Of a DNA stretch of 46,736 nt, positions 3,059-34,862 are shown in pieces; position 1 is the stretch's first letter, and each line of letters begins with the position of its first letter. The stretch lies in NCBI GenBank assembly GCA_020719345.1, contig DYQJ01000002.1, positions 1-46,736 on the forward strand, read 5' to 3'. A program made the position numbers and the translations under genes. The notes beneath the pieces are model-generated. The model had not been told where the DNA came from. It saw only the letters and a list, made by a program, of their open reading frames with translations, and made no database searches. The stretch comes from Draconibacterium orientale. GTDB lineage: Bacteria; Bacteroidota; Bacteroidia; Bacteroidales; DYQJ01.

Positions 3059-3107
3059 TTATACTATAAACGGCAACTTTGCCAAAGTTTTAATTACCAA
3101 ACAATTA
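3059..3107. repeat. Palindromic repeat family 2 (TTATACTATAAACGGCAACTTTGCCAAAGTTTTAATTAC)
   Basis: The same ~48-nt string recurs at 31457-31504. Partial copies lie at 31502-31530 and 33686-33747, and a related hairpin at 13716-13740. Confidence 0.65.
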
Positions 3108-15047: not shown

Positions 15048-15749
15048 TCAGACCGTTAAAATATTATTTCCAATTTCATCTATTATTATTTTCTGATTTT
15101 CAAAGTTTTCAACTATAGAGAAACCATTATAAAACGGTTCAATTTGCAAATAGCGTTGCCGGTATAATTCGTTTCCTTGTTTATCAATATGGAACCAACC
15201 GTTTACGTCTTTTGCGGTAGCATAATCTTTGTGAAATATTCCTAAATCAAGAAAATATTTTCCGTTTAGGTTGTTTCCTTGTTTATCAATATGTTTCCAG
15301 CCGGTTTGATTTTTCACACAACAATAACCGTCTTTGTAATCTCCTGCATAAAAATATTCTTCGGTGTAGATTCGGTTGCCGTTCTTATCAAGATGAAAAT
15401 ATTTATTGTTTTGTGTTCTGACGGTGCAAACATTTTCCTGATAATTTCCGCACCAAGAATAATTTTCGTTGTAAATTCGTTCTCCATTTTCATTGATATG
15501 AAACCAATCATTTTGATTATCAATCACTGCGGCACAATTGCAATAAAAACCGAAGCATTTTAAATAACGTTCTTTGTATAATTCGTTTCCATTTATATCA
15601 ATATGAAACCAGCCCGATTTGTCTTTTACAGGCGCCAGACCGGGTGCGTGAAATTTCATAACTTTTTCAAATTCTTTATCAAAAAGTTTATTGTTTTGAA
15701 AAAGAAAAAACTTGCTGTCCTGTGATATTTGTATGTCGTTGTATTTCAT
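15048..15749 (-). CDS. WG-repeat (KWG-like) protein with no signal peptide
   Basis: About 8 repeats of WFHI(D/N)xxGNxxY and WKHIDKQGN. The ATG overlaps the upstream stop (ATGA at 15746-15749). Confidence 0.75.
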   Translation of the reverse strand: MKYNDIQISQDSKFFLFQNNKLFDKEFEKVMKFHAPGLAPVKDKSGWFHIDINGNELYKERYLKCFGFYCNCAAVIDNQNDWFHINENGERIYNENYSWCGNYQENVCTVRTQNNKYFHLDKNGNRIYTEEYFYAGDYKDGYCCVKNQTGWKHIDKQGNNLNGKYFLDLGIFHKDYATAKDVNGWFHIDKQGNELYRQRYLQIEPFYNGFSIVENFENQKIIIDEIGNNILTV

Positions 15750-17179
15750 TTGTTTAGCAATATATTTTTAACTAAAGAAATTTGATTTACATTTAATAGA
15801 CACGAAAGCAAATATTTTTCAATACCACCTTCTTGCTCAATTATTTCTAAAATAATTTGCAAATGTTTTAAATCCACGTCCATTTCGCTTGCTAAATAAT
15901 CGTTGTTAATGCTTTGTAAATTTGCGTTAGAAAGTAAATGAAACAACGTAATTACAAAACCTGTTCGGTCTTTACCTGCCAAACAATGTATGCAAATTGA
16001 ATTATCACTGTTGGCGATAATTGTTTCTATTATTATTTTAACACTTGATTTACAATCTAATACAAAATATTTATACGCAATTTCAACGTTTGTTCCGGTA
16101 TTAACTAAATTTTTAAATTCAAAACTTTGTTTCCATGGGTTAAAAGGTGCGCGAACAATGTTATATTTTGATTTTAAATTTTCGGAATAACTATTTTCAT
16201 CAATTTCTCTGTCGGCTCTTAAATCTATGATTGTCTTTATGTTAAGTTTTTGAAGCGTCTCAATTAAAATGTTTTCTTCTTTGATAAGAGAAAGTGCTGA
16301 GCTACGAAAAATAAATCCGTTTTTGATTTTTTTATTAAATTTGGAAATATCTCTAAAATTCCAAAAGAAATCGCGTTTGTAGATTGTTTCAAGAAAGCTA
16401 ATTATGTCATTTGTTTGTAGTTGTAGGTCAAATTTTGAATTAGCAATTTCTAAATATTTTATAAATAAATCGAGTAATTTTCGTTTGTGCCAATTAGCCA
16501 GACGCAAATCCATTGTTCCTAATTTTTCAATTTCTAAGTTTTGTTTGTAACTTATCGAGGTTAAAAAATTATTTGGCATGTAATCGTGTTCGGTATTTCC
16601 TTGGCAAAAATAAACAAGTCGGACAACTGCATTCAAAGCGTGTGAAAATAAAACATTGAATTTATAGCCGTCACTCTTAGAATGATTATAAGAACAGCCC
16701 TCAAAACGATTTTGAAATTCTGTGATTAAATTTTTTATTTTGTAAGAGAATTCTTTGGCGAAATTTTTTTGTTTTAAAAGCGTGATATTATTCAGATATT
16801 CCAAAATAGAATTAGATTTATCAAAAATGATAGTGTTTTCCGGCACTTTAATTTCAGAGCCAAGAAAATATTTATCAATTTCTGTTTTTGAATAGCAAAC
16901 AAATATTTCGGTAATCATAAAAATTTCCGAAAAATAAAAACACCATTTATTTTTTTCAGACAAAAATAACATATATTTTAGTTCGTCTTGAAATTCTTTT
17001 TTTAGGTTATCTACAAAAAGATTATTATCAAAATCTTTTGTTACAATTATTTGATAGTCAATATCGCTATTAGGTTTAGGTGTTCGGCGACCAAAACTTC
17101 CTATGAGCAAAACAGTTTCTATTGTTTCTGTTTTAGCGAAAAAAGTATTTAATTTTTTTATTAAATTATATTGTATCAT
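15746..17179 (-). CDS. Fusion protein: Pol-beta-superfamily nucleotidyltransferase (ANT/KNTase-like) plus C-terminal Cys-based protein-tyrosine-phosphatase-like domain
   Basis: The N-terminus has IGSFGRRTPKPNSDIDYQIIV (GSx..DxD NTase motif). A helical middle region follows. The C-terminus has IIDLRADRE and CIHCLAGKDRTGFV (HCx5R(T) P-loop). Confidence 0.7.
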   Translation of the reverse strand: MIQYNLIKKLNTFFAKTETIETVLLIGSFGRRTPKPNSDIDYQIIVTKDFDNNLFVDNLKKEFQDELKYMLFLSEKNKWCFYFSEIFMITEIFVCYSKTEIDKYFLGSEIKVPENTIIFDKSNSILEYLNNITLLKQKNFAKEFSYKIKNLITEFQNRFEGCSYNHSKSDGYKFNVLFSHALNAVVRLVYFCQGNTEHDYMPNNFLTSISYKQNLEIEKLGTMDLRLANWHKRKLLDLFIKYLEIANSKFDLQLQTNDIISFLETIYKRDFFWNFRDISKFNKKIKNGFIFRSSALSLIKEENILIETLQKLNIKTIIDLRADREIDENSYSENLKSKYNIVRAPFNPWKQSFEFKNLVNTGTNVEIAYKYFVLDCKSSVKIIIETIIANSDNSICIHCLAGKDRTGFVITLFHLLSNANLQSINNDYLASEMDVDLKHLQIILEIIEQEGGIEKYLLSCLLNVNQISLVKNILLNK

Positions 17180-17313
17180 ATTTTAATTGAGTTTATAAAA
17201 ATGTTAGTAATTGTTTTATTTTTGTTTTTTTTTAAAATGATTGAAACTGCTGTCTTTTCAAAATAATTCTCACGTGTTATTTTCATAATTATTTATTTTT
17301 TTTAGTAAAAAGT

Positions 17314-17344
17314 TTTGTTGTTATGTATAAATGTATTATCTTTG
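17314..17344 (+). promoter_or_regulatory. Consensus Bacteroidota promoter on the + strand (TTTG-N19-TAtcTTTG), unit 1
   Basis: tttg at 17314-17317 and tatctttg at 17337-17344. This is one of three copies of the same ~70-nt element. Confidence 0.55.
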
Positions 17345-17350
17345 TTCTAA

Positions 17351-17434
17351 TAAAAAAGATTATGAAAGGCAGTGGCTTTCACGCAAAACCGGCACCGAGA
17401 ACTGTTCTGTCGGTTTTCTTTTTTATTTTTTTTT
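17351..17434 (+). ncRNA. Candidate small RNA 1 (promoter to stem-loop plus T-run)
   Basis: aaaaccg(17385-17391) pairs with cggtttt(17411-17417) and is followed by cttttttattttttttt. No credible ORF. It converges on the 3' end of the frameshifted small gene. Confidence 0.35.
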
Positions 17435-17825
17435 ACGCAAATCAAAAGCCGTTAATATAAATTTTTTATTTTTTCCTTTCCACTCAGTTATTATTACAAC
17501 TCTAAACATATCACTTTCAAGTAAAATTTTTTGTTGTTTCTTTTGCTTTAACAAGATTCCCTAACTTTGCTATTATAGGTATAAAGTCTTCAATATTAAA
17601 TCCTAATTCTTTAATTTCGTGTCCATGTTTTTCGTAAATATGTTTTAAACCGTACCCTTTATTATTTTTATCATTTTCGCCCCAAACAATATCAATATAA
17701 CCTATGTCTTCTCTGTATAAAGCATTTATACATTCGCCTTCTTGCACCTTTAATAAAAGTTTTATTGCTTCCTTCGGTTTGTTTTTAAATTCCGTATAAA
17801 CCGTTCCAAATTCGTTTTTTTCCAT
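17423..17825 (-). pseudogene. Small H-x-KH protein paralogue 1, interrupted by a 1-nt frameshift in an A6/T4 run
   Basis: The ATG at 17825 is preceded by a -7 box TAtcTTTG (rc of 17847-17854). The reading frame stops at 17517. The +1 frame continues as ILLESDMFRVVIITEWKGKNKKFILTAFDLRKKK to 17423, which is homologous to the C-terminus of paralogue 2. Confidence 0.6.
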
Positions 17826-17990
17826 TTTATCATTTTTAATTTCCTGCAAAGATATATTATTTTTCAACAGTTTGATTTCTATTTGCAACAGTTTGGGCGT
17901 AAATGACATGATTTTCATATATTATTTTTTTAGTAAAAAATTTTGTTATTAATTATAAATGTATTATCTTTGTGCTAATAAAAAGTTGTT
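17578..17990. repeat. Tandem direct repeat, copy 1 (period 662 bp; near-identical to 18240-18652)
   Basis: Same sequence at offset 662 with few mismatches. It covers the 5' two-thirds of the small gene, its leader, and the + strand promoter element. Confidence 0.85.
17942..17972 (+). promoter_or_regulatory. Consensus Bacteroidota promoter on the + strand (TTTG-N19-TAtcTTTG), unit 2
   Basis: tttg at 17942-17945 and tatctttg at 17965-17972. Confidence 0.55.
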
Positions 17991-18092
17991 TTTCGGAGCA
18001 GTGTTCCGTTAGTAAAATTAATGGCGAATGCGCTTTCGTTAATTCCAATTTTTCAGAAACCTGTAATTTATTTTACAGGTTTTTTATTTTTT
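17979..18092 (+). ncRNA. Candidate small RNA 2 (~110 nt) ending in a 10-bp stem intrinsic terminator
   Basis: aaacctgtaa(18057-18066), a 6-nt loop, then ttacaggttt(18073-18082), followed by tttattttttat. The T-run is only on the + strand. The stop codon of the convergent gene (18068-18070) lies in the loop. Confidence 0.4.
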
Positions 18093-18487
18093 ATCGGTCT
18101 CAAATCAAAAGCACTCAATAAAAATTGCTTGTTTTTTCCATTCCATGTTGTTTTAATTATCACTCTAAACATTTTACCTTCTAAATATATTTTATCATCT
18201 TTTTTTGACAAAAATAAGTTTCCAAATTGCACGACAATAGGTATAAAATATTCAATATCAAATCCTAATTCTTTAATTTCGTGTCCATGTTTTTCGTAAA
18301 TATGTTTTAAACCGTACCCTTTATTATTTTTATCATTTTCGCCCCAAACAATATCAATATAACCTATGTCTTCTCTGTATAAAGCATTTATACATTCGCC
18401 TTCTTGCACCTTTAATAAAAGTTTTATTGCTTCCTTCGGTTTGTTTTTAAATTCCGTATAAACCGTTCCAAATTCGTTTTTTTCCAT
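18068..18487 (-). CDS. Small H-x-KH protein paralogue 2 (intact; possibly a barnase/EndoU/colicin-E5/RelE-like PBECR-type nuclease)
   Basis: The likely start is MEKNEFG at 18487, with a -7 box TAtcTTTG 21 nt upstream (rc of 18509-18516). Contains GYGLKHIYEKHGHEIKELGF and a C-terminal LLSAFDLR. The family assignment is tentative. Confidence 0.6.
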   Translation of the reverse strand: MEKNEFGTVYTEFKNKPKEAIKLLLKVQEGECINALYREDIGYIDIVWGENDKNNKGYGLKHIYEKHGHEIKELGFDIEYFIPIVVQFGNLFLSKKDDKIYLEGKMFRVIIKTTWNGKNKQFLLSAFDLRPIKNKKPVK

Positions 18488-18652
18488 TTTATCATTTTTA
18501 ATTTCCTGCAAAGATATATTATTTTTCAACAGTTTGATTTCTATTTGCAACAGTTTGGGCGTAAATGACATGATTTTCATATATTATTTTTTTAGTAAAA
18601 AATTTTGTTATTAATTATAAATGTATTATCTTTGTGCCAATAAAAAATTGTT
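18240..18652. repeat. Tandem direct repeat, copy 2
   Basis: See 17578-17990. A third partial copy containing only the promoter element lies at 17281-17352. Confidence 0.85.
18604..18634 (+). promoter_or_regulatory. Consensus Bacteroidota promoter on the + strand (TTTG-N19-TAtcTTTG), unit 3
   Basis: tttg at 18604-18607 and tatctttg at 18627-18634. The downstream ~100 nt contain tacggct/agccgta pairing but no clear terminator. Confidence 0.45.
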
Positions 18653-28650: not shown

Positions 28651-28690
28651 AGAAATGAAATAATGAAAGTCTTTTCACTATTTCATTTCT
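28651..28690 (+). terminator. Imperfect ~19-bp hairpin after the nuclease gene
   Basis: agaaatgaaataatgaaag pairs with cttttcactatttcatttct. Confidence 0.45.
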
Positions 28691-28767: not shown

Positions 28768-29274
28768 TTATAGATAGTCTGTTATAAATCTAAAGCTGTC
28801 CTCAAAAACTTGTTCGTTATTTTCTATTAATTTATTGATAAATAACAATCTTGCCTCAGTAACATCATCATTATTCAAGTTCAAAAAATTAATAGTTGCT
28901 TTTGCTCTGTCGTTATCTTTTTTCGCAATAAGTTTACCCGAGTATGAATCTAAATGAAAATATTTATCAAAAAAATAATCTGGCTCGTCTGGCTTTATCG
29001 GTTTAGGAATTTCAGAATATTTATTGTCGCGTTTGTGAGCATTACAACTGTTGCAAGCCACAAATAAATTTTCCCAAACATACTCTAATTCAGGATAATC
29101 TTTTTTATTTTGAAAATGCTCGACCACTAAATTACCTGAATTATAGAAATATTCATCGCAATACGAACAATGATTTCCTGAGATTAACAATAAAAATGGT
29201 TTTACACAGTCGCGAAACTCCTTATAATTAATATCATTGCAATCGGGCTTTGGAGTTCTATTTTGTTTGTGCAT
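28768..29274 (-). CDS. ptuB: HNH endonuclease (PtuB-like, TIGR02646-style CxxC...H...N...CxxC...H)
   Basis: CSYCDEYF...VEHFQNK...ENLFVACNSCNAHKRD. Overlaps the upstream ATPase gene by 17 nt. Confidence 0.7.
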   Translation of the reverse strand: MHKQNRTPKPDCNDINYKEFRDCVKPFLLLISGNHCSYCDEYFYNSGNLVVEHFQNKKDYPELEYVWENLFVACNSCNAHKRDNKYSEIPKPIKPDEPDYFFDKYFHLDSYSGKLIAKKDNDRAKATINFLNLNNDDVTEARLLFINKLIENNEQVFEDSFRFITDYL

Positions 29275-31435
29275 TTTCTTTTAGTTTTAATAGCTGATTT
29301 TCTTCTATTTTTGCAATCATACGTGTTTGCGAACTTATTTGTAACATTTCAAGCAGTTTTTTGTATTTTTCACTTTCCATTAGCGAAAAATCATTCTTTT
29401 TTATTATTTCATCGCGTATTTTTTGAAATTCTTTAATATTTTTAGTTACATTTTCACTAAAATAATCGCTATCAAAAAAATTACGATACAATGCCTCAAT
29501 ACTATATCCTATTGGAATTTCTTTTAACTCAACATTTCCGTTCTCATTTAAAATGAACGCTTTATGACCTTCGGCAGACTGTAGTGCAACTACATTATGC
29601 GTTGTTAAAATAAACTGAATATTAGGGAAAACTTCTTTTAAAGCCGACAAAAAAGTGCGTTGCCAAACTGGATGCAAGTGTTTATCAAATTCATCTATCA
29701 ATATCGTACCGTTTACAATTTTAAAAATATCTTTTATTTCAACGGGTTTGAGGAACAAATTTTTTCGGGCAGATAGAATTTTAACAACAATATCAGTTAT
29801 TAAAACTATGTTTGTGCGAAACCCCTCACTTATTTCGTACAAAGAAAATTCTACATTATTTGAGTCAACAAAATAAAATCCGTAACTCATTTTTTTAATT
29901 GAATATTTTTTTGAGGATTGCAACATCAAGAATTTATTGATTATGCTTTGTAAACAATTGGAAATTTCTATCAAATCCTTCTGTTGATTCAGAGAATACT
30001 TTTGAATAGATTGTTGTTCCAGTCCATTCAATATATCAAGAGGATTGGGTAACGAAATGTTATAATCATTGAACAAAGTTTCAATATAATATGTTTTGGC
30101 AACGCCACTTGCTAATTCATCTATATAAATACCAGAAGTTGACTGTTTTGAAGTAAATAAATTTTCGCCATAACCTAATGCCAAATAAGTTTGCGGTATT
30201 TCTTTGTTGGCATTTACAGAATAAGGATATATTCGGAGTTCGCGTTCAAAAGTATTCCATTTTAGTTTTATTTCTGCATAAATATCTTCTGTTACAACTT
30301 TTTTGTTTATTATAGATTTTATAAATTGATAGTATCCTTGCTCTCTTGGTATCCATTCCATTGTTGCTTGTGGTATCAAATCTATTGCAATTGCTTGTAA
30401 CAGAGATGTTTTACCACTACCATTCTGACCTATTAATATGTTTATTTTATCTAAATTGTTAATTTCTATACTATTAAATAATTTGAAATTATTAATTTGT
30501 AATGAAGTTATATGTTTATTTTCTTTTTCAAAATCTAATGTTTTAAATACTTGCTCTCTTTGTTTTTCATTTTTTAATTCTATTAATAACTCTTCGCCGC
30601 CAATTGCTATCAATATTTTATCTATAAATTTACCGTAATGTGTTTTTTCGCCAATCTTAAATTTCTGTATTAATTCCGGTACGTCATAAAATTCGTGTGC
30701 ATAATTTGTTGTGTAGAACAATTTATTCGGCTTTGTCACTGAATAGTCTGTTCTTTTTTCATTTATTGCGTTAAAAACCGTTAAAATTGCTTTGTAATTT
30801 TGATTTTGATTTTTGGTATTCAAAAAAAGAACATCTATGTCAAGTTCCTCTTCATACATAGAAGTCAAATATTTCAGGTCATTATCTACAATTATAAAAT
30901 CAGAAAATTTGTAACCCCATTTGAATTTTTTATAGTTTGCAGTTTGAATAGTTAATTGAAAAGCATCTTCAAGTGCTTCTGATAAATTTTTAGAATATCC
31001 ATCTCTGAAAAAATGTAAATTAGTAAGATTATCAATAGAGTTATAAATAGTTAGATATTCTAAATTCTTCAATTCAAAAATTGCATCAGGAAATTTAGTT
31101 AATTTGGTATCAAAAAATTTTAATATTTTAATATTTTGAAGTTTTGGCAAACTTTTTTCAATATATTCTTCAGTTCCTGTTAAATCGGCTTTAAAAAAAT
31201 CTATCCGTTGGAGATTTTTTAATTTAGATAAATCAGTATATATATCACCTCGCCAACTATAACTTATGCAAATATCTTTGATTGTAATCTTATTAAAATA
31301 TGGTATTAATGAAATAAATTCATCTGCGGATAAAAGAATTTTATCATCAATATTATACCAAATTTGGTCATAAACAGTAATGTAATTGTCTTTATTTACT
31401 TTTTCTATCAGATTATCTATTTCTATTTGTGTCAT
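29258..31435 (-). CDS. ptuA: ABC/SMC-type ATPase (PtuA-like, AAA_15/21-style) with a ~300-aa N-terminal leucine-rich-repeat-containing extension
   Basis: Walker A GQNGSGKTSLLQAI, signature-like YEISEGFRT, Walker B GTILIDEFDKHLHP and H-loop ILTTHN. The N-terminus has LPKLQNIKILKFFDTKLTKFPDAIFELKNLEYLTIYNS, which is LRR-like. Confidence 0.7.
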   Translation of the reverse strand: MTQIEIDNLIEKVNKDNYITVYDQIWYNIDDKILLSADEFISLIPYFNKITIKDICISYSWRGDIYTDLSKLKNLQRIDFFKADLTGTEEYIEKSLPKLQNIKILKFFDTKLTKFPDAIFELKNLEYLTIYNSIDNLTNLHFFRDGYSKNLSEALEDAFQLTIQTANYKKFKWGYKFSDFIIVDNDLKYLTSMYEEELDIDVLFLNTKNQNQNYKAILTVFNAINEKRTDYSVTKPNKLFYTTNYAHEFYDVPELIQKFKIGEKTHYGKFIDKILIAIGGEELLIELKNEKQREQVFKTLDFEKENKHITSLQINNFKLFNSIEINNLDKINILIGQNGSGKTSLLQAIAIDLIPQATMEWIPREQGYYQFIKSIINKKVVTEDIYAEIKLKWNTFERELRIYPYSVNANKEIPQTYLALGYGENLFTSKQSTSGIYIDELASGVAKTYYIETLFNDYNISLPNPLDILNGLEQQSIQKYSLNQQKDLIEISNCLQSIINKFLMLQSSKKYSIKKMSYGFYFVDSNNVEFSLYEISEGFRTNIVLITDIVVKILSARKNLFLKPVEIKDIFKIVNGTILIDEFDKHLHPVWQRTFLSALKEVFPNIQFILTTHNVVALQSAEGHKAFILNENGNVELKEIPIGYSIEALYRNFFDSDYFSENVTKNIKEFQKIRDEIIKKNDFSLMESEKYKKLLEMLQISSQTRMIAKIEENQLLKLKENAQTK

Positions 31436-31456
31436 TTTGTTAATTTTTTTACAAAG

Positions 31457-31530
31457 TTATACTATAAACTGCAACTTTGGCAAGTTTTAATTACGAAACA
31501 ATTATACTATAAACGGCAAGTTTTAATTAC
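31457..31530. repeat. Palindromic repeat family 2, one full plus one partial tandem copy
   Basis: ttatactataaactgcaactttggcaagttttaattacgaaacaatta followed by ttatactataaacggcaagttttaattac. Confidence 0.65.
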
Positions 31531-31558: not shown

Positions 31559-31602
31559 AAGGAATGAATTAATGAAGTTTCTTTCATTAGTTCATTCCCT
31601 TT
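31559..31602 (-). terminator. ~18-bp hairpin downstream of the TPR gene
   Basis: aaggaatgaattaatgaa pairs with ttcattagttcattccctt. Confidence 0.5.
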
Positions 31603-33690: not shown

Positions 33691-33747
33691 ACGGCAACTT
33701 GCCAAAGTTTTAATTATAAATGGCAACTTGGCAAAGTTGCGTTTATA
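33686..33747. terminator. Family-2 palindrome forming an ~18-bp hairpin between convergent truA and prfB
   Basis: tataaacggcaacttgcc(33686-33703) pairs with ggcaaagttgcgtttata(33730-33747). The truA stop codon lies inside the 5' arm. Confidence 0.6.
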
Positions 33748-33772
33748 GTATAATTCTCAATTGTTCATTAAC

Positions 33773-34862
33773 TTAGATACTTCCGAACTCCATGAGGTAT
33801 GATTTGATGAACTCTTTTAGTTCGCCGTCTAATACTGCTTGTGCATCAGAGGTTTCGTAATTAGTTCTCAAATCTTTGACCATCTTATAAGGATGTAGCA
33901 CGTAGCTTCGTATTTGTGACCCCCATTCTATTTTGAGTTTTTGTCCTTCTATTTCGGCTTGTTTTTCGCGGCGTTTGCGGAGTTCCAATTCGTAGAGATG
34001 CGATTTTAGTATCCGCAGCGCGTTTTCTTTGTTTTGCAATTGAGAACGGCTTTCGGTGTTTTCTATAATTATTCCGGTCGGTTCATGTCTTAGTCTTACA
34101 CCGGTTTCTACTTTATTGACGTTTTGTCCGCCTGCGCCTCCGGAGCGAAAAGTGTCCCATGTTATGTCTGACTGATTAATTTCTATATTTATGGTGTCAT
34201 CTACAGCGGGAGCCACAAATACGGATGCAAAAGTAGTTTGTCGTTTGCCTTGTGCGTTGAATGGTGAGATTCTGACGAGTCTATGCACCCCGTTTTCCGA
34301 TTTTAAATATCCGTATGCTGATTCTCCAGTAAATTCTATTGTAACCGATTTAACTCCTGCGACTTCGCCTTCTTGTATGTCAAGTATTTTAGCTTTGTAA
34401 TTATTTTTTTCTCCCCAACGTGTGTACATGCGAAGAAGCATTTGTACCCAGTCTAAGCTTTCTGTTCCTCCTGCTCCTGAATTTATTTTCATTATTGCTC
34501 CGAGGGCATCTTCTTCTTTACGGAGCATATTTTTTATTTCCAATTCATCTATGAGTTTCTCTGCTAAAAAGTAAAGTTGCTCCACCTCTTCTTCTGATGC
34601 TTCGGAAGTTTTGTAAAATCCATAAATAGTGTCCACATCTTCTATTGCTTCGGCGACTTTAAAAAAATGTTTAGTCCACTTTTTCATGTCACTAATTTTT
34701 TTCAAATGCTCTTCTGCTTGTTTTGGGTCTGCCCAAAATTTATCATCAGATATTTTAAGTTCGGCTGTGTCTATTTCAATTAATTTATTATCTATATCAA
34801 AGATACCTCCTTAAAGCTTGGTGTTTCTGCTTTAAATCTTTTATTTGCTCTATGCTAATCAT
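33773..34862 (-). CDS. prfB: Peptide chain release factor 2, requiring a programmed +1 frameshift
   Basis: Frame 0 reads [21 protein letters not shown] then TGA (34862-34797). The +1 frame continues [14 protein letters not shown]... into the 310-aa ORF containing SGAGGQ(N)[10 protein letters not shown] (GGQ) and SPF. Confidence 0.92.
34797..34813 (-). promoter_or_regulatory. RF2 autoregulatory frameshift site (AGGAGG TAT CTT TGA)
   Basis: The minus strand reads aaggaggtatctttga. An SD-like AGGAGG lies 3 nt before the CUU UGA slippery/stop site. The T at 34799 is skipped. Confidence 0.9.

What the first reader, a model, noticed from the sequence alone, without database searches (positions are those of the whole stretch)
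28768..31435. Septu-like ATPase + HNH pair whose ATPase carries an N-terminal leucine-rich-repeat domain
Two minus-strand genes overlap by 17 nt. The 725-aa protein has a complete ABC/SMC-type ATPase core: Walker A GQNGSGKT, signature-like ISEGFRT, Walker B ILIDEFD and H-loop TTHN. The 168-aa partner is a zinc-finger HNH nuclease (CSYC...VEHF...ENL...CNSCNAHK). That pairing is the architecture of the Septu (PtuA/PtuB) anti-phage system. What looks unusual is the ~300-aa N-terminal extension of the ATPase. It contains LRR-like units (LPKLQNIKILKFFDTKLTKFPDAIFELKNLEYLTIYNS), a ligand-sensor module typical of NLR-type immune receptors and not, as far as I know, part of canonical PtuA. The pair forms a 2.9-kb islet between housekeeping genes (bifunctional nuclease; TPR protein and rplS). 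It is bounded by a gene relic on one side and family-2 repeats on the other, which is consistent with horizontal insertion.
Basis: partly seen in the sequence, partly recalled or inferred. Interest (0 to 1): 0.8.

Follow-up and report, generated by a model that had tools for sequence, protein, structure and literature searches.

The report
Septu defence pair with LRR sensor-like extension
This is a two-gene Septu-type anti-phage system (ATPase PtuA plus HNH nuclease PtuB) whose ATPase carries an unusual 300-residue N-terminal add-on, a short leucine-rich repeat followed by a domain shaped like the COR domain of Roco/LRRK2 proteins, which may be a built-in infection sensor and has not been described for this system.

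Summary
Two overlapping minus-strand genes (725 aa and 168 aa) match Septu PtuA and PtuB by profile, motif and fold. The top 50 PDB structural matches of the ATPase model are all solved PtuA chains.

The 305-residue N-terminal extension is real and conserved in about 20 homolog clusters. It has two parts:
- a short LRR solenoid of about 4 turns (residues ~51-146);
Its best structural matches are the COR domain of a bacterial Roco protein and LRRK2. Sequence support for COR homology is inconclusive.

No PADLOC PtuA profile covers the extension. The long PADLOC profiles turn out to be PtuB-PtuA fusions.

Related architectures exist and all pair with PtuB: a larger group with Pfam-significant LRRs, and one Roc-COR-PtuA fusion. 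I found no paper describing any of them.

Low GC, flanking hairpins and homologs in unrelated contexts (one inside a his operon) suggest a mobile cassette. No empty site could be found.

Verdict: a new variant of a known system. The sensor function is inferred, not shown.

The parts
29258..31435 (-). ptuA-long: 725-aa PtuA-type ABC/SMC-like ATPase with a 305-residue N-terminal extension
   Evidence: ORF. PADLOC PtuA 4.8e-42. AF2 model pLDDT 84.5, with the top 50 PDB fold matches all PtuA. The start codon is supported by the conserved N-terminus MTQxEIxxLIxKVN in homologs.
31286..31435 (-). N-terminal cap (residues 1-50): helix, two short strands, helix, leading into the solenoid
   Evidence: AF2 secondary structure.
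30998..31285 (-). Short leucine-rich-repeat solenoid (residues ~51-146, about 4 turns; strands at 54-58, 77-81, 104-108, 127-131)
   Evidence: phmmer hits to LRR/Roco proteins. PDB Leptospira LRR proteins, E 6e-12. AF2 models. Foldseek LRR hits. Pfam LRR_14 reaches only 17 bits.
30521..30997 (-). Second N-terminal domain (residues ~147-305): alpha/beta domain with a COR-like fold, ending in a long helix that leads into the ATPase
   Evidence: Foldseek best hits are 3dpt_B and 3dpu_B (COR of C. tepidum Roco, E 1.1e-4 and 4.7e-4) and LRRK2 C-terminal halves. It occupies the same position as the true COR-B in the Roc-COR-PtuA fusion P0023. Sequence tests are inconclusive.
29261..30520 (-). PtuA ATPase core (residues 306-725), with Walker A at 30407-30430, signature at 29813-29833, Walker B at 29684-29704 and H-loop at 29594-29605
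   Evidence: Motif coordinates. Invariant columns G336, K342, S536, G538, D581, E582, H613. Pfam AAA_21, SMC_N and AAA_15 all above threshold.
28768..29274 (-). ptuB: 168-aa zinc-finger HNH nuclease (CSYC 29158-29169, VEHF 29113-29124, ENL 29065-29073, CNSCNAHK 29032-29055)
   Evidence: PADLOC PtuB 1.9e-26. TIGR02646 53.4 bits, above the 52.15 cutoff. Pfam HNH 27.5 bits, above the 21.4 cutoff. PDB PtuB chains, E 1e-7.
29258..29274 (-). 17-nt overlap of ptuA and ptuB, suggesting translational coupling
   Evidence: The same 17-nt overlap occurs in homologous pairs L002, L086 and L172.
28651..28690 (.). Left boundary hairpin: terminator-like, shared by the convergent BFN gene and ptuB
   Evidence: Terminator scan. 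79% related to the right hairpin.
31561..31598 (.). Right boundary hairpin: terminator-like, downstream of the TPR gene. Within the window the only other copy of this hairpin is the left boundary hairpin
31452..31530 (-). ptuA upstream region. It holds a TAACTTTG motif (TAnnTTTG, Bacteroidetes -7-like) 16 nt upstream of the ATG, and two tandem copies of a dispersed intergenic repeat (31457-31494 and 31502-31530)
   Evidence: Sequence and repeats. The promoter reading is my inference from the published Bacteroidetes promoter consensus and was not tested.

Best explanation
This is a functional Septu-type (PtuA/PtuB) anti-phage cassette of a Bacteroidota bacterium, in a rare long form.

Shown: PtuB is a TIGR02646-family HNH nuclease. 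PtuA is a PtuA-fold ABC ATPase with all catalytic motifs intact. The two genes are translationally coupled. PtuA carries a conserved N-terminal module made of a short LRR solenoid plus an alpha/beta domain with a COR-like fold.

Inferred mechanism, by analogy with characterised Septu and retron I-A systems: PtuA oligomerises and holds PtuB in an inactive complex. The N-terminal LRR module acts as the input device, binding a phage protein or otherwise sensing an infection cue. The COR-like domain couples this to the ATPase, possibly through dimerisation as COR-B does in Roco proteins. An ATP-dependent rearrangement then licenses the HNH nuclease to cut nucleic acid, either tRNA-Tyr or DNA as in known Septu systems. 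That stops phage replication at the cost of host growth.

In this reading the PtuA N-terminus is a port for add-on sensors. Retron I-A systems use it to dock the reverse transcriptase. Here it is a covalently fused LRR module.
For: Septu membership:
- HMM hits: PADLOC PtuA 4.8e-42 and PtuB 1.9e-26; TIGR02646 above its cutoff.
- PDB sequence hits to PtuA and PtuB chains.
- Foldseek top 50 matches all PtuA.
- Intact and invariant motifs.
- PtuB H53 and N69 have the same 16-residue spacing as the essential H75 and N91 of Septu EcB88.

The module is real and under selection: it is conserved over its full length in about 20 clusters at 31-60% identity. The models are confident, with pLDDT 84.5 (full length) and 86.1 (N-terminus alone).

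LRR. COR-like fold.

Every intact relative examined pairs with PtuB: L002, L086, L004, L085, L087, L171 and L172.

LRR or Roco modules are fused to at least three different PtuA subclades. Their best PADLOC models differ: PDLC00298/00351, 00304/00337 and 00287/00316. That argues the fusion is functionally favoured.

Precedents: the N-terminal extension of retron Ec78 PtuA docks the RT and ncRNA and is absent from stand-alone PtuA (PMC12819146). Septu needs Walker A/B and HNH activity and cleaves tRNA-Tyr on infection (PMC13096335).
Against: - There is no experimental evidence for defence, for a ligand, or for the nuclease's target.
- The LRR is short (about 4 turns) and falls below Pfam's threshold. 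It could be a structural or scaffolding element and not a sensor.
- COR homology is not supported at sequence level: hhalign probability 0.2-5%, no Pfam COR-B hit, and COR-B HMM scores no better than real-protein nulls.
- A close homolog (P0006, 56% identity) lacks residues 1-233 yet keeps intact motifs and PtuB. The module may therefore be dispensable for the core activity.
- The pair is not in a classical defence island.
- Variable presence among relatives could not be shown.
Confidence: 0.6

Rival explanations
1. The pair is a Septu system, but the N-terminal module is not an infection sensor. It is an assembly or scaffolding device, for example COR-like dimerisation and LRR-mediated self-association replacing or modifying the PtuA hexamer. 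Alternatively it tethers the complex to a host partner or a cellular location. Triggering would then work as in ordinary Septu.
For: COR-B of Roco proteins is a dimerisation device (cited in PMC7159879). The LRR has only about 4 turns. The natural N-terminal deletion P0006 keeps an apparently intact ATPase-nuclease pair. Retron-type PtuA changes its oligomeric state through acquired elements (PMC12819146).
Against: LRRs fused to NTPases in conflict systems usually act as ligand-binding modules (established knowledge of NLR and Roco architectures). Independent fusions of longer, canonical LRRs to other PtuA clades are easier to explain as sensors.
Confidence: 0.25
2. The LRR and COR resemblances are spurious. 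The extension would be a family-specific alpha/beta domain of unrelated origin, and the AF2 model is biased towards common repeat folds.
For: Pfam LRR_14 is below threshold. Foldseek E-values for LRR targets are only 4e-3 to 4e-2. All sequence tests for COR-B are non-significant. The alignments behind the models are shallow, at 11-17 sequences.
Against: The exhaustive phmmer search found 557 hits at E<=1e-3. The best non-family ones match residues ~60-135 through 5-14 stretches each, and the four I scanned are Pfam LRR proteins. PDB LRR proteins score down to 6e-12. Family members P0049 and P0143 give weak LRR Pfam hits at the same place. Model confidence in the LRR region is 90-96 pLDDT.
Confidence: 0.08
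3. The pair is not a defence system. It would be a housekeeping or decaying ATPase-nuclease pair, for example one involved in DNA repair.
For: It sits between housekeeping genes, not in a defence island. It is present in every contig that carries the identical neighbouring gene.
Against: The best matches by far are defence-system models and structures. RecF, Rad50 and RecN models match only the ~45-residue P-loop region. GC is 6-8 points below the flanks. Homologs sit in unrelated contexts, including between hisH and hisA. Distribution is sporadic and rare. All motifs are intact, which argues against decay.
Confidence: 0.05

Closest known systems
Stand-alone Septu (PtuA/PtuB), e.g. E. coli PtuAB (PDB 8EE4, 8EEA, 8SUX) and Septu EcB88
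   Same: Two-gene operon of an ABC/SMC-type ATPase and a TIGR02646 HNH nuclease. The ATPase fold is the same (Foldseek E about 1e-13). Walker A/B, signature, H-loop and H-N-H residues are intact. It would be called Septu by PADLOC models.
   Different: Canonical PtuA (~420-465 aa) starts directly at the ATPase head. This protein has 305 extra N-terminal residues (LRR plus COR-like domain) that none of the best 25 PADLOC PtuA profiles covers. Sequence identity to solved PtuAs is only 16-20%. Oligomeric state and trigger are unknown.
Retron type I-A (Ec78/Eco7, Ec83) PtuA/PtuB effector module
   Same: The same ATPase-nuclease core, and these are the best PDB sequence and fold hits. In both cases the PtuA N-terminus carries an acquired element that connects the effector to a sensing device (PMC12819146).
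   Different: The retron N-terminal extension is about 65 residues and docks a separate RT-ncRNA-msDNA complex. Here there is no RT nearby, and the module is a fused 305-residue protein domain pair. The NCBIfam retron-PtuA equivalog scores 115 bits against a cutoff of 500.
Bacterial Roco proteins / LRRK2 (LRR-Roc-COR)
   Same: The LRR segment's best sequence matches are LRR-Roc-COR proteins. Domain 2's best fold matches are the C. tepidum Roco COR domain and LRRK2. A relative (P0023) is a true Roc-COR-A-COR-B-PtuA fusion with a PtuB partner.
   Different: No Roc GTPase and no COR-A are present. COR-B homology is not supported by sequence. The NTPase is an ABC ATPase.
NLR-like / STAND defence proteins (bNACHT, AVAST)
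   Same: The same conceptual layout: a repeat-type sensor domain, an NTPase switch and a nuclease effector.
   Different: The NTPase is ABC/SMC-type, not STAND. The NACHT hit is 15 bits on the P-loop only. The sensor is N-terminal, not C-terminal, and the effector is a separate protein.
P0021-type LRR-PtuA proteins (Saccharicrinis, Salinimicrobium, Desulfobacterota; annotated only as 'AAA family ATPase')
   Same: An N-terminal LRR, a linker domain of about 160 residues, a PtuA-type ATPase and an adjacent PtuB.
   Different: They have longer, Pfam-significant LRRs. Their linker domain is unrelated to the window's domain 2 (hhalign E 0.24). They are only about 20% identical overall and match different best PADLOC subfamilies.

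Membership tests
Septu (PtuA/PtuB) | PtuA: ABC/SMC-like (AAA_15/AAA_21) ATPase matching PtuA profiles and fold | tested here: met
   PADLOC PtuA models down to 4.8e-42. Pfam AAA_21 69 bits, SMC_N 46.7 and AAA_15 39.3, all above cutoff. Foldseek top 50 hits all PtuA.
Septu (PtuA/PtuB) | PtuB: HNH nuclease of the TIGR02646 family | tested here: met
   TIGR02646 53.4 bits against a cutoff of 52.15. PADLOC PtuB 1.9e-26. PDB PtuB chains, E 1e-7.
Septu (PtuA/PtuB) | The two genes are adjacent and co-oriented in one operon | tested here: met
   17-nt overlap on the same strand, conserved in homologous pairs.
Septu (PtuA/PtuB) | Intact Walker A/B and H-N-H catalytic residues, which are required for defence in characterised Septu | tested here: met
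   K342, D581/E582 and H613 in PtuA; H53, N69 and H80 plus four Cys in PtuB. The requirement is shown in PMC13096335.
Septu (PtuA/PtuB) | Protects against phage; forms a PtuA oligomer-PtuB complex | not testable with these tools
   This needs expression with phage challenge, and a complex structure. No multimer prediction was available.
Retron type I-A PtuAB | Retron-type PtuA equivalog, with an adjacent reverse transcriptase and ncRNA | tested here: not met
   NF041760 scores 115 bits against a cutoff of 500, and NF041761 56 against 150. No RT is among the neighbouring ORFs.
Leucine-rich repeat domain | Tandem LxxLxLxxN-type repeats recognised by curated LRR profiles | tested here: inconclusive
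   Pfam LRR_14 scores 17.2 bits against a cutoff of 40. However, phmmer finds hundreds of LRR proteins and PDB LRR proteins down to 6e-12.
Leucine-rich repeat domain | Curved beta-strand/helix solenoid fold | tested here: met
   AF2 gives strands at 54-58, 77-81, 104-108 and 127-131 alternating with helices, with pLDDT 90-96. Foldseek hits Rsu1, InlA, Leptospira LRR proteins, SHOC2 and LRRC8. This is a prediction, not an experimental structure.
Roco (Roc-COR) proteins | Roc GTPase domain | tested here: not met
   No Roc, Ras or Arf hit at E<=1.
Roco (Roc-COR) proteins | COR domain | tested here: inconclusive
   Fold: 3dpt_B E 1.1e-4 and 3dpu_B 4.7e-4, plus LRRK2. Sequence: hhalign probability 0.2% and 5%, no Pfam COR-B hit, no PDB profile hit, and HMM scores within the null range.
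NLR / STAND NTPases | Central STAND (NACHT/NB-ARC) NTPase module | tested here: not met
   NACHT scores 15.4 bits against a cutoff of 26.7, over residues 333-352 only, which is the P-loop. The ATPase fold is PtuA/ABC.

The most novel reading that the evidence does not exclude
Septu has repeatedly been converted into an NLR-like pattern-recognition machine built on an ABC ATPase instead of a STAND NTPase. In this reading the window's LRR plus COR-like module is a Roco-derived sensor that has lost Roc and COR-A. It binds a phage protein directly and gates the PtuB nuclease through PtuA. The Roc-COR-PtuA fusion (P0023) and the P0021-type LRR-PtuA proteins would be parallel solutions. That would make the PtuA N-terminus a general plug-in port for sensors (retron RT, LRR, Roco). 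It would also give Septu variants whose trigger can be read from, and re-engineered through, the LRR surface.
Probability: 0.3. Interest if true: 0.75.

Novelty: new variant of a known kind. Interest (0 to 1): 0.55.

Why it matters
How stand-alone Septu senses infection is still poorly understood. Retron I-A systems show that the PtuAB effector can be put under the control of an external sensor through the PtuA N-terminus. A PtuA with a covalently fused LRR module would be a tractable case in which the sensor is part of the protein, so the trigger could be found by pull-down or by escape mutants, and specificity could be tested by swapping LRR surfaces.

The finding also extends the combination of repeat sensor, NTPase and nuclease beyond STAND NTPases to ABC ATPases. 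It links bacterial Roco-type modules to a defined defence effector, through a Roc-COR-PtuA fusion that has a PtuB partner. Finally, it flags about 60 database clusters, currently labelled only 'AAA family ATPase' or left unnamed, as probable Septu variants.

Tried and rejected
1. Empty-site and synteny test for variable presence. Relatives fetched with the adjacent BFN gene from genome contigs were at most 56% identical and shared no neighbours. Relatives of the DUF6765 gene in metagenome contigs were at most 39% identical and shared no synteny. Contigs with the identical BFN protein all carry the pair, so they are the same strain. The test therefore could not be done.

2. Viral origin. No relative was found in viral contigs.

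3. Organism name. The cluster look-up gave no accession or name. Assignment to Bacteroidota rests on the relatives of the flanking genes.

4. The idea that the long PADLOC PtuA profiles (726-773 positions) already model LRR-PtuA was rejected. Their first ~250 positions are matched by PtuB proteins, so they model PtuB-PtuA fusions.

5. COR-B homology at sequence level. I tried hhalign with a 5-sequence and a 17-sequence COR-B profile, a Pfam scan of 11 domain-2 segments, a profile search against PDB sequences, and a COR-B HMM against 21 family members with real-ORF nulls. The register was consistent but the scores were not significant.

6. The search for homologous proteins with the domain-2 alignment returned nothing, not even family members. 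I treat that as a failed search, not as negative evidence.

7. The idea that the P0021-type and window-type proteins form one diverged family was rejected on the linker domain (hhalign E 0.24).

8. The idea that the dispersed repeat marks the islet boundary was rejected, because copies lie at two other intergenic sites.

9. Bracketing hairpins at homologous cassettes elsewhere: none found.

10. Literature searches for LRR-, Roco- or COR-linked Septu/PtuA found nothing. The primary Septu structure paper (PMC12318543) is not held.
Full report
OBSERVATION. Every quoted motif is present at the stated place. The ATPase catalytic residues (G336, K342, S536, G538, D581, E582, H613) are invariant across a 17-sequence alignment of homologs. 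The flanking genes are a BFN_dom+UVR 'bifunctional nuclease', a DUF6765 protein, a TPR protein, ribosomal protein L19, TruA and RF2. GC content of the pair is 27.1%, against 34.6% and 33.5% in the 5 kb on either side.

WHAT THE CORE IS. Both proteins belong to Septu.
- The ATPase hits dozens of PADLOC PtuA profiles (best 4.8e-42) over residues ~300-720. The small protein hits PtuB profiles (best 1.9e-26).
- NCBIfam TIGR02646 ('retron system putative HNH endonuclease', the PtuB family) scores 53.4 bits, above its 52.15 cutoff. The retron-specific equivalogs NF041760 and NF041761 are far below theirs, so this is not a retron-type pair.
- By sequence the closest solved structures are PtuA and PtuB chains.
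- A full-length AlphaFold2 model built on the family alignment is confident (mean pLDDT 84.5, pTM 0.77). Its top 50 Foldseek matches in the PDB are all PtuA chains from Septu and from retron Ec78, Ec83 and Eco7 complexes (E 7e-16 to 3e-12).
- RecF, Rad50, RecN and ABC-transporter models match only the ~45-residue P-loop region.

THE N-TERMINAL EXTENSION. Residues 1-305 precede the ATPase head. They are not an artefact of a wrong start codon. The extension is conserved over its full length, starting from a shared MTQxEIxxLIxKVN N-terminus, in 15 full-length homolog clusters of 714-808 aa at 31-60% identity. An exhaustive phmmer search of residues 1-300 against 1.84 billion representatives added four more (P0032, P0049, P0114, P0143), all 729-791 aa PtuA-like proteins.

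That search also answers the LRR question. 557 proteins match at E<=1e-3. The best non-family ones are long proteins matched through 5-14 separate stretches to query residues ~60-135. The four I scanned are LRR-Roc-COR or LRR-STAND proteins with LRR Pfam scores of 250-600 bits. PDB LRR proteins from Leptospira match the same stretch (E down to 6e-12). Pfam's own LRR_14 model is below threshold on the window protein (17.2 against 40 bits), so the repeat is divergent and short.

Both AF2 models (full length, and residues 1-305 alone with pLDDT 86.1 and pTM 0.83) put strands at 54-58, 77-81, 104-108 and 127-131, alternating with short helices at a 23-27-residue period. That is a solenoid of about four turns behind an N-terminal cap. 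Foldseek finds Rsu1, internalin A, Leptospira LRR proteins, SHOC2 and LRRC8, at modest E-values of 4e-3 to 4e-2.

Residues ~147-305 form a separate alpha/beta domain that ends in a long helix running into the ATPase. The two best Foldseek matches of the N-terminal model are the COR domain and the Roc-COR tandem of the Chlorobium tepidum Roco protein (3dpt_B at E 1.1e-4 over 159 columns, and 3dpu_B at 4.7e-4), followed by several LRRK2 C-terminal-half structures. None of those targets contains an LRR, so the match must lie in domain 2.

Independent circumstantial support comes from P0023, a 991-aa relative of the ATPase found. Its layout is Roc (130-240), COR-A (305-444), COR-B (460-593), then a PtuA-type ATPase (PADLOC PDLC00287, 8e-75). 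It is followed by an overlapping, full-length PtuB (PDLC00316, 8e-86) and preceded by another LRR-Roc-COR gene. The window protein aligns to P0023 from residue 284, exactly at its COR-B/ATPase junction. A genuine COR-B therefore sits where the window's domain 2 sits.

At sequence level, however, I could not establish homology:
- hhalign of the domain-2 alignment against COR-B profiles gave probability 0.2% (5 sequences) and 5% (17 sequences; 80 columns; pairwise E 0.0075).
- No family member hits Pfam COR-B.
- A profile search of PDB sequences found nothing.
- A COR-B HMM hit domain 2 in 12 of 21 family members in a consistent register, but at 0.3-4.7 bits, no better than real-ORF nulls.

I therefore call the domain 'COR-like by predicted fold and position', with homology unproven.

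IS IT ALREADY CATALOGUED? Several PADLOC PtuA profiles are 726-773 positions long, which at first suggested that long forms were already known. PtuB proteins match the first ~250 positions of those profiles (PDLC00292, 00288, 00291), so they model PtuB-PtuA fusions, not LRR fusions. None of the best 25 PtuA profiles aligns to window residues 1-248. Full-text searches combining Septu or PtuA with LRR, leucine-rich repeat, Roco, Roc-COR, COR domain, or AAA_15/AAA_21 found no description of such an architecture. The library does not cover most subscription journals, so this is absence of evidence.

The architecture is not unique to this window. A search with the Saccharicrinis protein P0021 revealed about 38 further clusters of 750-844 aa with Pfam-significant LRRs fused to a PtuA-type ATPase. 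They come from Bacteroidota and Desulfobacterota and are annotated, where named at all, with generic labels such as 'AAA family ATPase'. P0021 and the Salinimicrobium member have an adjacent PtuB or HNH gene. A Desulfonema copy is truncated, has lost the Walker-B glutamate and has no PtuB. The linker domain of this second group is unrelated to the window's domain 2 and to COR-B (hhalign E 0.24 and 0.35). Its best PADLOC subfamilies also differ from the window's. LRR or Roco modules therefore seem to have been joined to PtuA at least three times.

CONTEXT AND MOBILITY. The pair is a solitary two-gene unit among housekeeping genes. Homologous pairs with the same 17-nt overlap lie in unrelated places:
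- between hisH and hisA inside a histidine operon, with spacers of 50 and 58 nt (L002);
- next to HEPN/nucleotidyltransferase genes (L086);
- next to nadA and T9SS-related genes (L003 and L004).

No relative was found on viral contigs. In the window, the 2.87-kb segment carrying ptuB, ptuA and their upstream region is bracketed by two related 38-40-nt hairpins (28651-28690 and 31561-31598, 79% matched). These are the only two terminator-like sites in the region and the only copies of that element in the 46.7-kb window. This fits insertion next to, with duplication of, the terminator shared by the once-convergent BFN and TPR genes. Homologous cassettes elsewhere are not bracketed like this, so it is a property of the site and not of the cassette.

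The 'family-2 repeats' upstream of ptuA are two tandem copies of a dispersed intergenic repeat that also occurs at 3059 and 33741. They do not mark the islet. A TAACTTTG motif 16 nt upstream of the ATG matches the Bacteroidetes -7 promoter consensus TAnnTTTG (my own reading, untested).

The direct test of variable presence failed for lack of close relatives. Horizontal acquisition is supported by GC content, by the scattered contexts and by the sporadic distribution, but it is not proven.

A NATURAL DELETION. P0006 is 56% identical to the window protein, comes from a metagenome that also holds a copy of the window's locus, and starts at the equivalent of residue 234. Only 343 nt lie upstream of it and they contain no remnant of the missing module. 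It keeps all ATPase motifs and a 169-aa HNH partner with the 17-nt overlap. The core can therefore persist without the LRR, which is what one would expect if the module is regulatory. It could equally be a decaying copy.

HOW IT MOST LIKELY WORKS. Shown here: the family and fold of both proteins, intact catalytic motifs, translational coupling, and a conserved LRR plus COR-like N-terminal module.

Taken from the literature:
- Stand-alone PtuAB shows DNA-nicking activity that falls as ATP rises, and forms an inflammasome-like assembly under protein-mediated control (as summarised in PMC12819146, and in bioRxiv 10.1101/2024.10.26.620412).
- In retron Ec78 an acquired ~65-residue N-terminal extension of PtuA docks the RT and ncRNA, so that the retron sequesters the effector.

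Inferred: in the long form, the N-terminal module plays the part that the retron plays in type I-A systems. The LRR binds a phage component or holds the complex in an autoinhibited state. The COR-like domain and its long helix transmit this to the ATPase head. ATP binding or hydrolysis then releases or activates PtuB, which cuts tRNA or DNA and halts the infection. I put about 0.9 on 'Septu-type defence pair' and about 0.6 on the whole statement including a regulatory or sensor role for the module. The main rival (0.25) is that the module is an assembly or tethering device.

VERDICT. It is a new variant of a known system: rare (about 20 clusters of this type), apparently undescribed, one of several parallel LRR or Roco fusions to PtuA, and carrying an extra COR-like domain that ties it to Roco proteins. 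The interest is moderate. It does not overturn anything, but it offers a concrete handle on how Septu senses infection, and it is an example of LRR-type sensing wired to an ABC ATPase instead of a STAND NTPase. Everything about function remains inference from sequence and predicted structure.

Noticed in passing
window 28651-28690 and 31561-31598: Two related 38-40-nt hairpins (79% matched) bracket the ptuAB segment exactly. They are the only terminator-like sites in the region and the only copies of this element in the window. This may be a duplicated terminator left by the insertion.
   Followed up: partly
window 3059-3100, 31457-31494, 31502-31530, 33715-33753 (-): A dispersed ~45-nt intergenic repeat (TTATACTATAAAC-GGCAACTTTGCC-AAGTTTTAATTAC) containing a small palindrome. 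All copies lie in gene-end or intergenic regions. Its function is unknown; it may be a REP-like element.
   Followed up: partly
window 15746-18580 (-): The lowest-GC patch of the window (25-28%, with strong negative GC skew) encodes a nucleotidyltransferase (Polbeta)-tyrosine-phosphatase fusion (477 aa) and a PBECR1 'phage-Barnase-EndoU-ColicinE5/D-RelE-like' nuclease (170 aa). It may be a second conflict or toxin islet, about 10 kb from the Septu pair.
   Followed up: partly
L002 6001-8764 (GCA_054923775.1, JBUDVJ010000041.1): A homologous long-PtuA/PtuB cassette sits between hisH and hisA on the same strand, with spacers of 50 and 58 nt. A defence cassette is embedded in a histidine-biosynthesis operon.
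   Followed up: partly
L087 2538-8893 (ENA ERZ23490197 scaffold_311): A Roc-COR-A-COR-B-PtuA fusion (991 aa) with an overlapping full-length PtuB (306 aa), directly downstream of a separate LRR-Roc-COR protein (778 aa). This is a 'Roco-Septu' locus that I did not find described.
   Followed up: partly
P0021 and P0173-P0209 (e.g. L085 6001-9067; L171 4001-7117): About 38 clusters of 750-844-aa proteins with Pfam-significant LRRs fused to a PtuA-type ATPase, from Bacteroidota and Desulfobacterota. They are annotated, where named at all, with generic labels such as 'AAA family ATPase'. The two intact loci checked have an adjacent PtuB or HNH gene.
   Followed up: partly
L172 3421-5401 (JGI 3300000230): A natural N-terminal deletion of the long PtuA (it starts at the equivalent of residue 234, with no upstream remnant). 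ATPase motifs are intact and a PtuB partner is present. It comes from the same metagenome that holds a copy of the window's locus.
   Followed up: yes
PADLOC profiles PDLC00288, PDLC00291, PDLC00292: These long 'PtuA' profiles (726-773 positions) are matched over their first ~200-250 positions by PtuB proteins, so they model PtuB-PtuA fusion proteins.
   Followed up: partly
L170 4001-6016 (Desulfonema limicola CP061799.1): An LRR-ATPase of the P0021 type that is C-terminally truncated, has Walker B VVIVDGID (the catalytic Glu is lost), and has no PtuB within 2 kb. It is probably a decayed copy.
   Followed up: partly
window 33773-34705 (-): The RF2 (prfB) ORF matches the PCRF profile only from position 28 and starts at a TTG. 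This is consistent with the usual +1 programmed frameshift, with the first ~27 codons in another frame.
   Followed up: no
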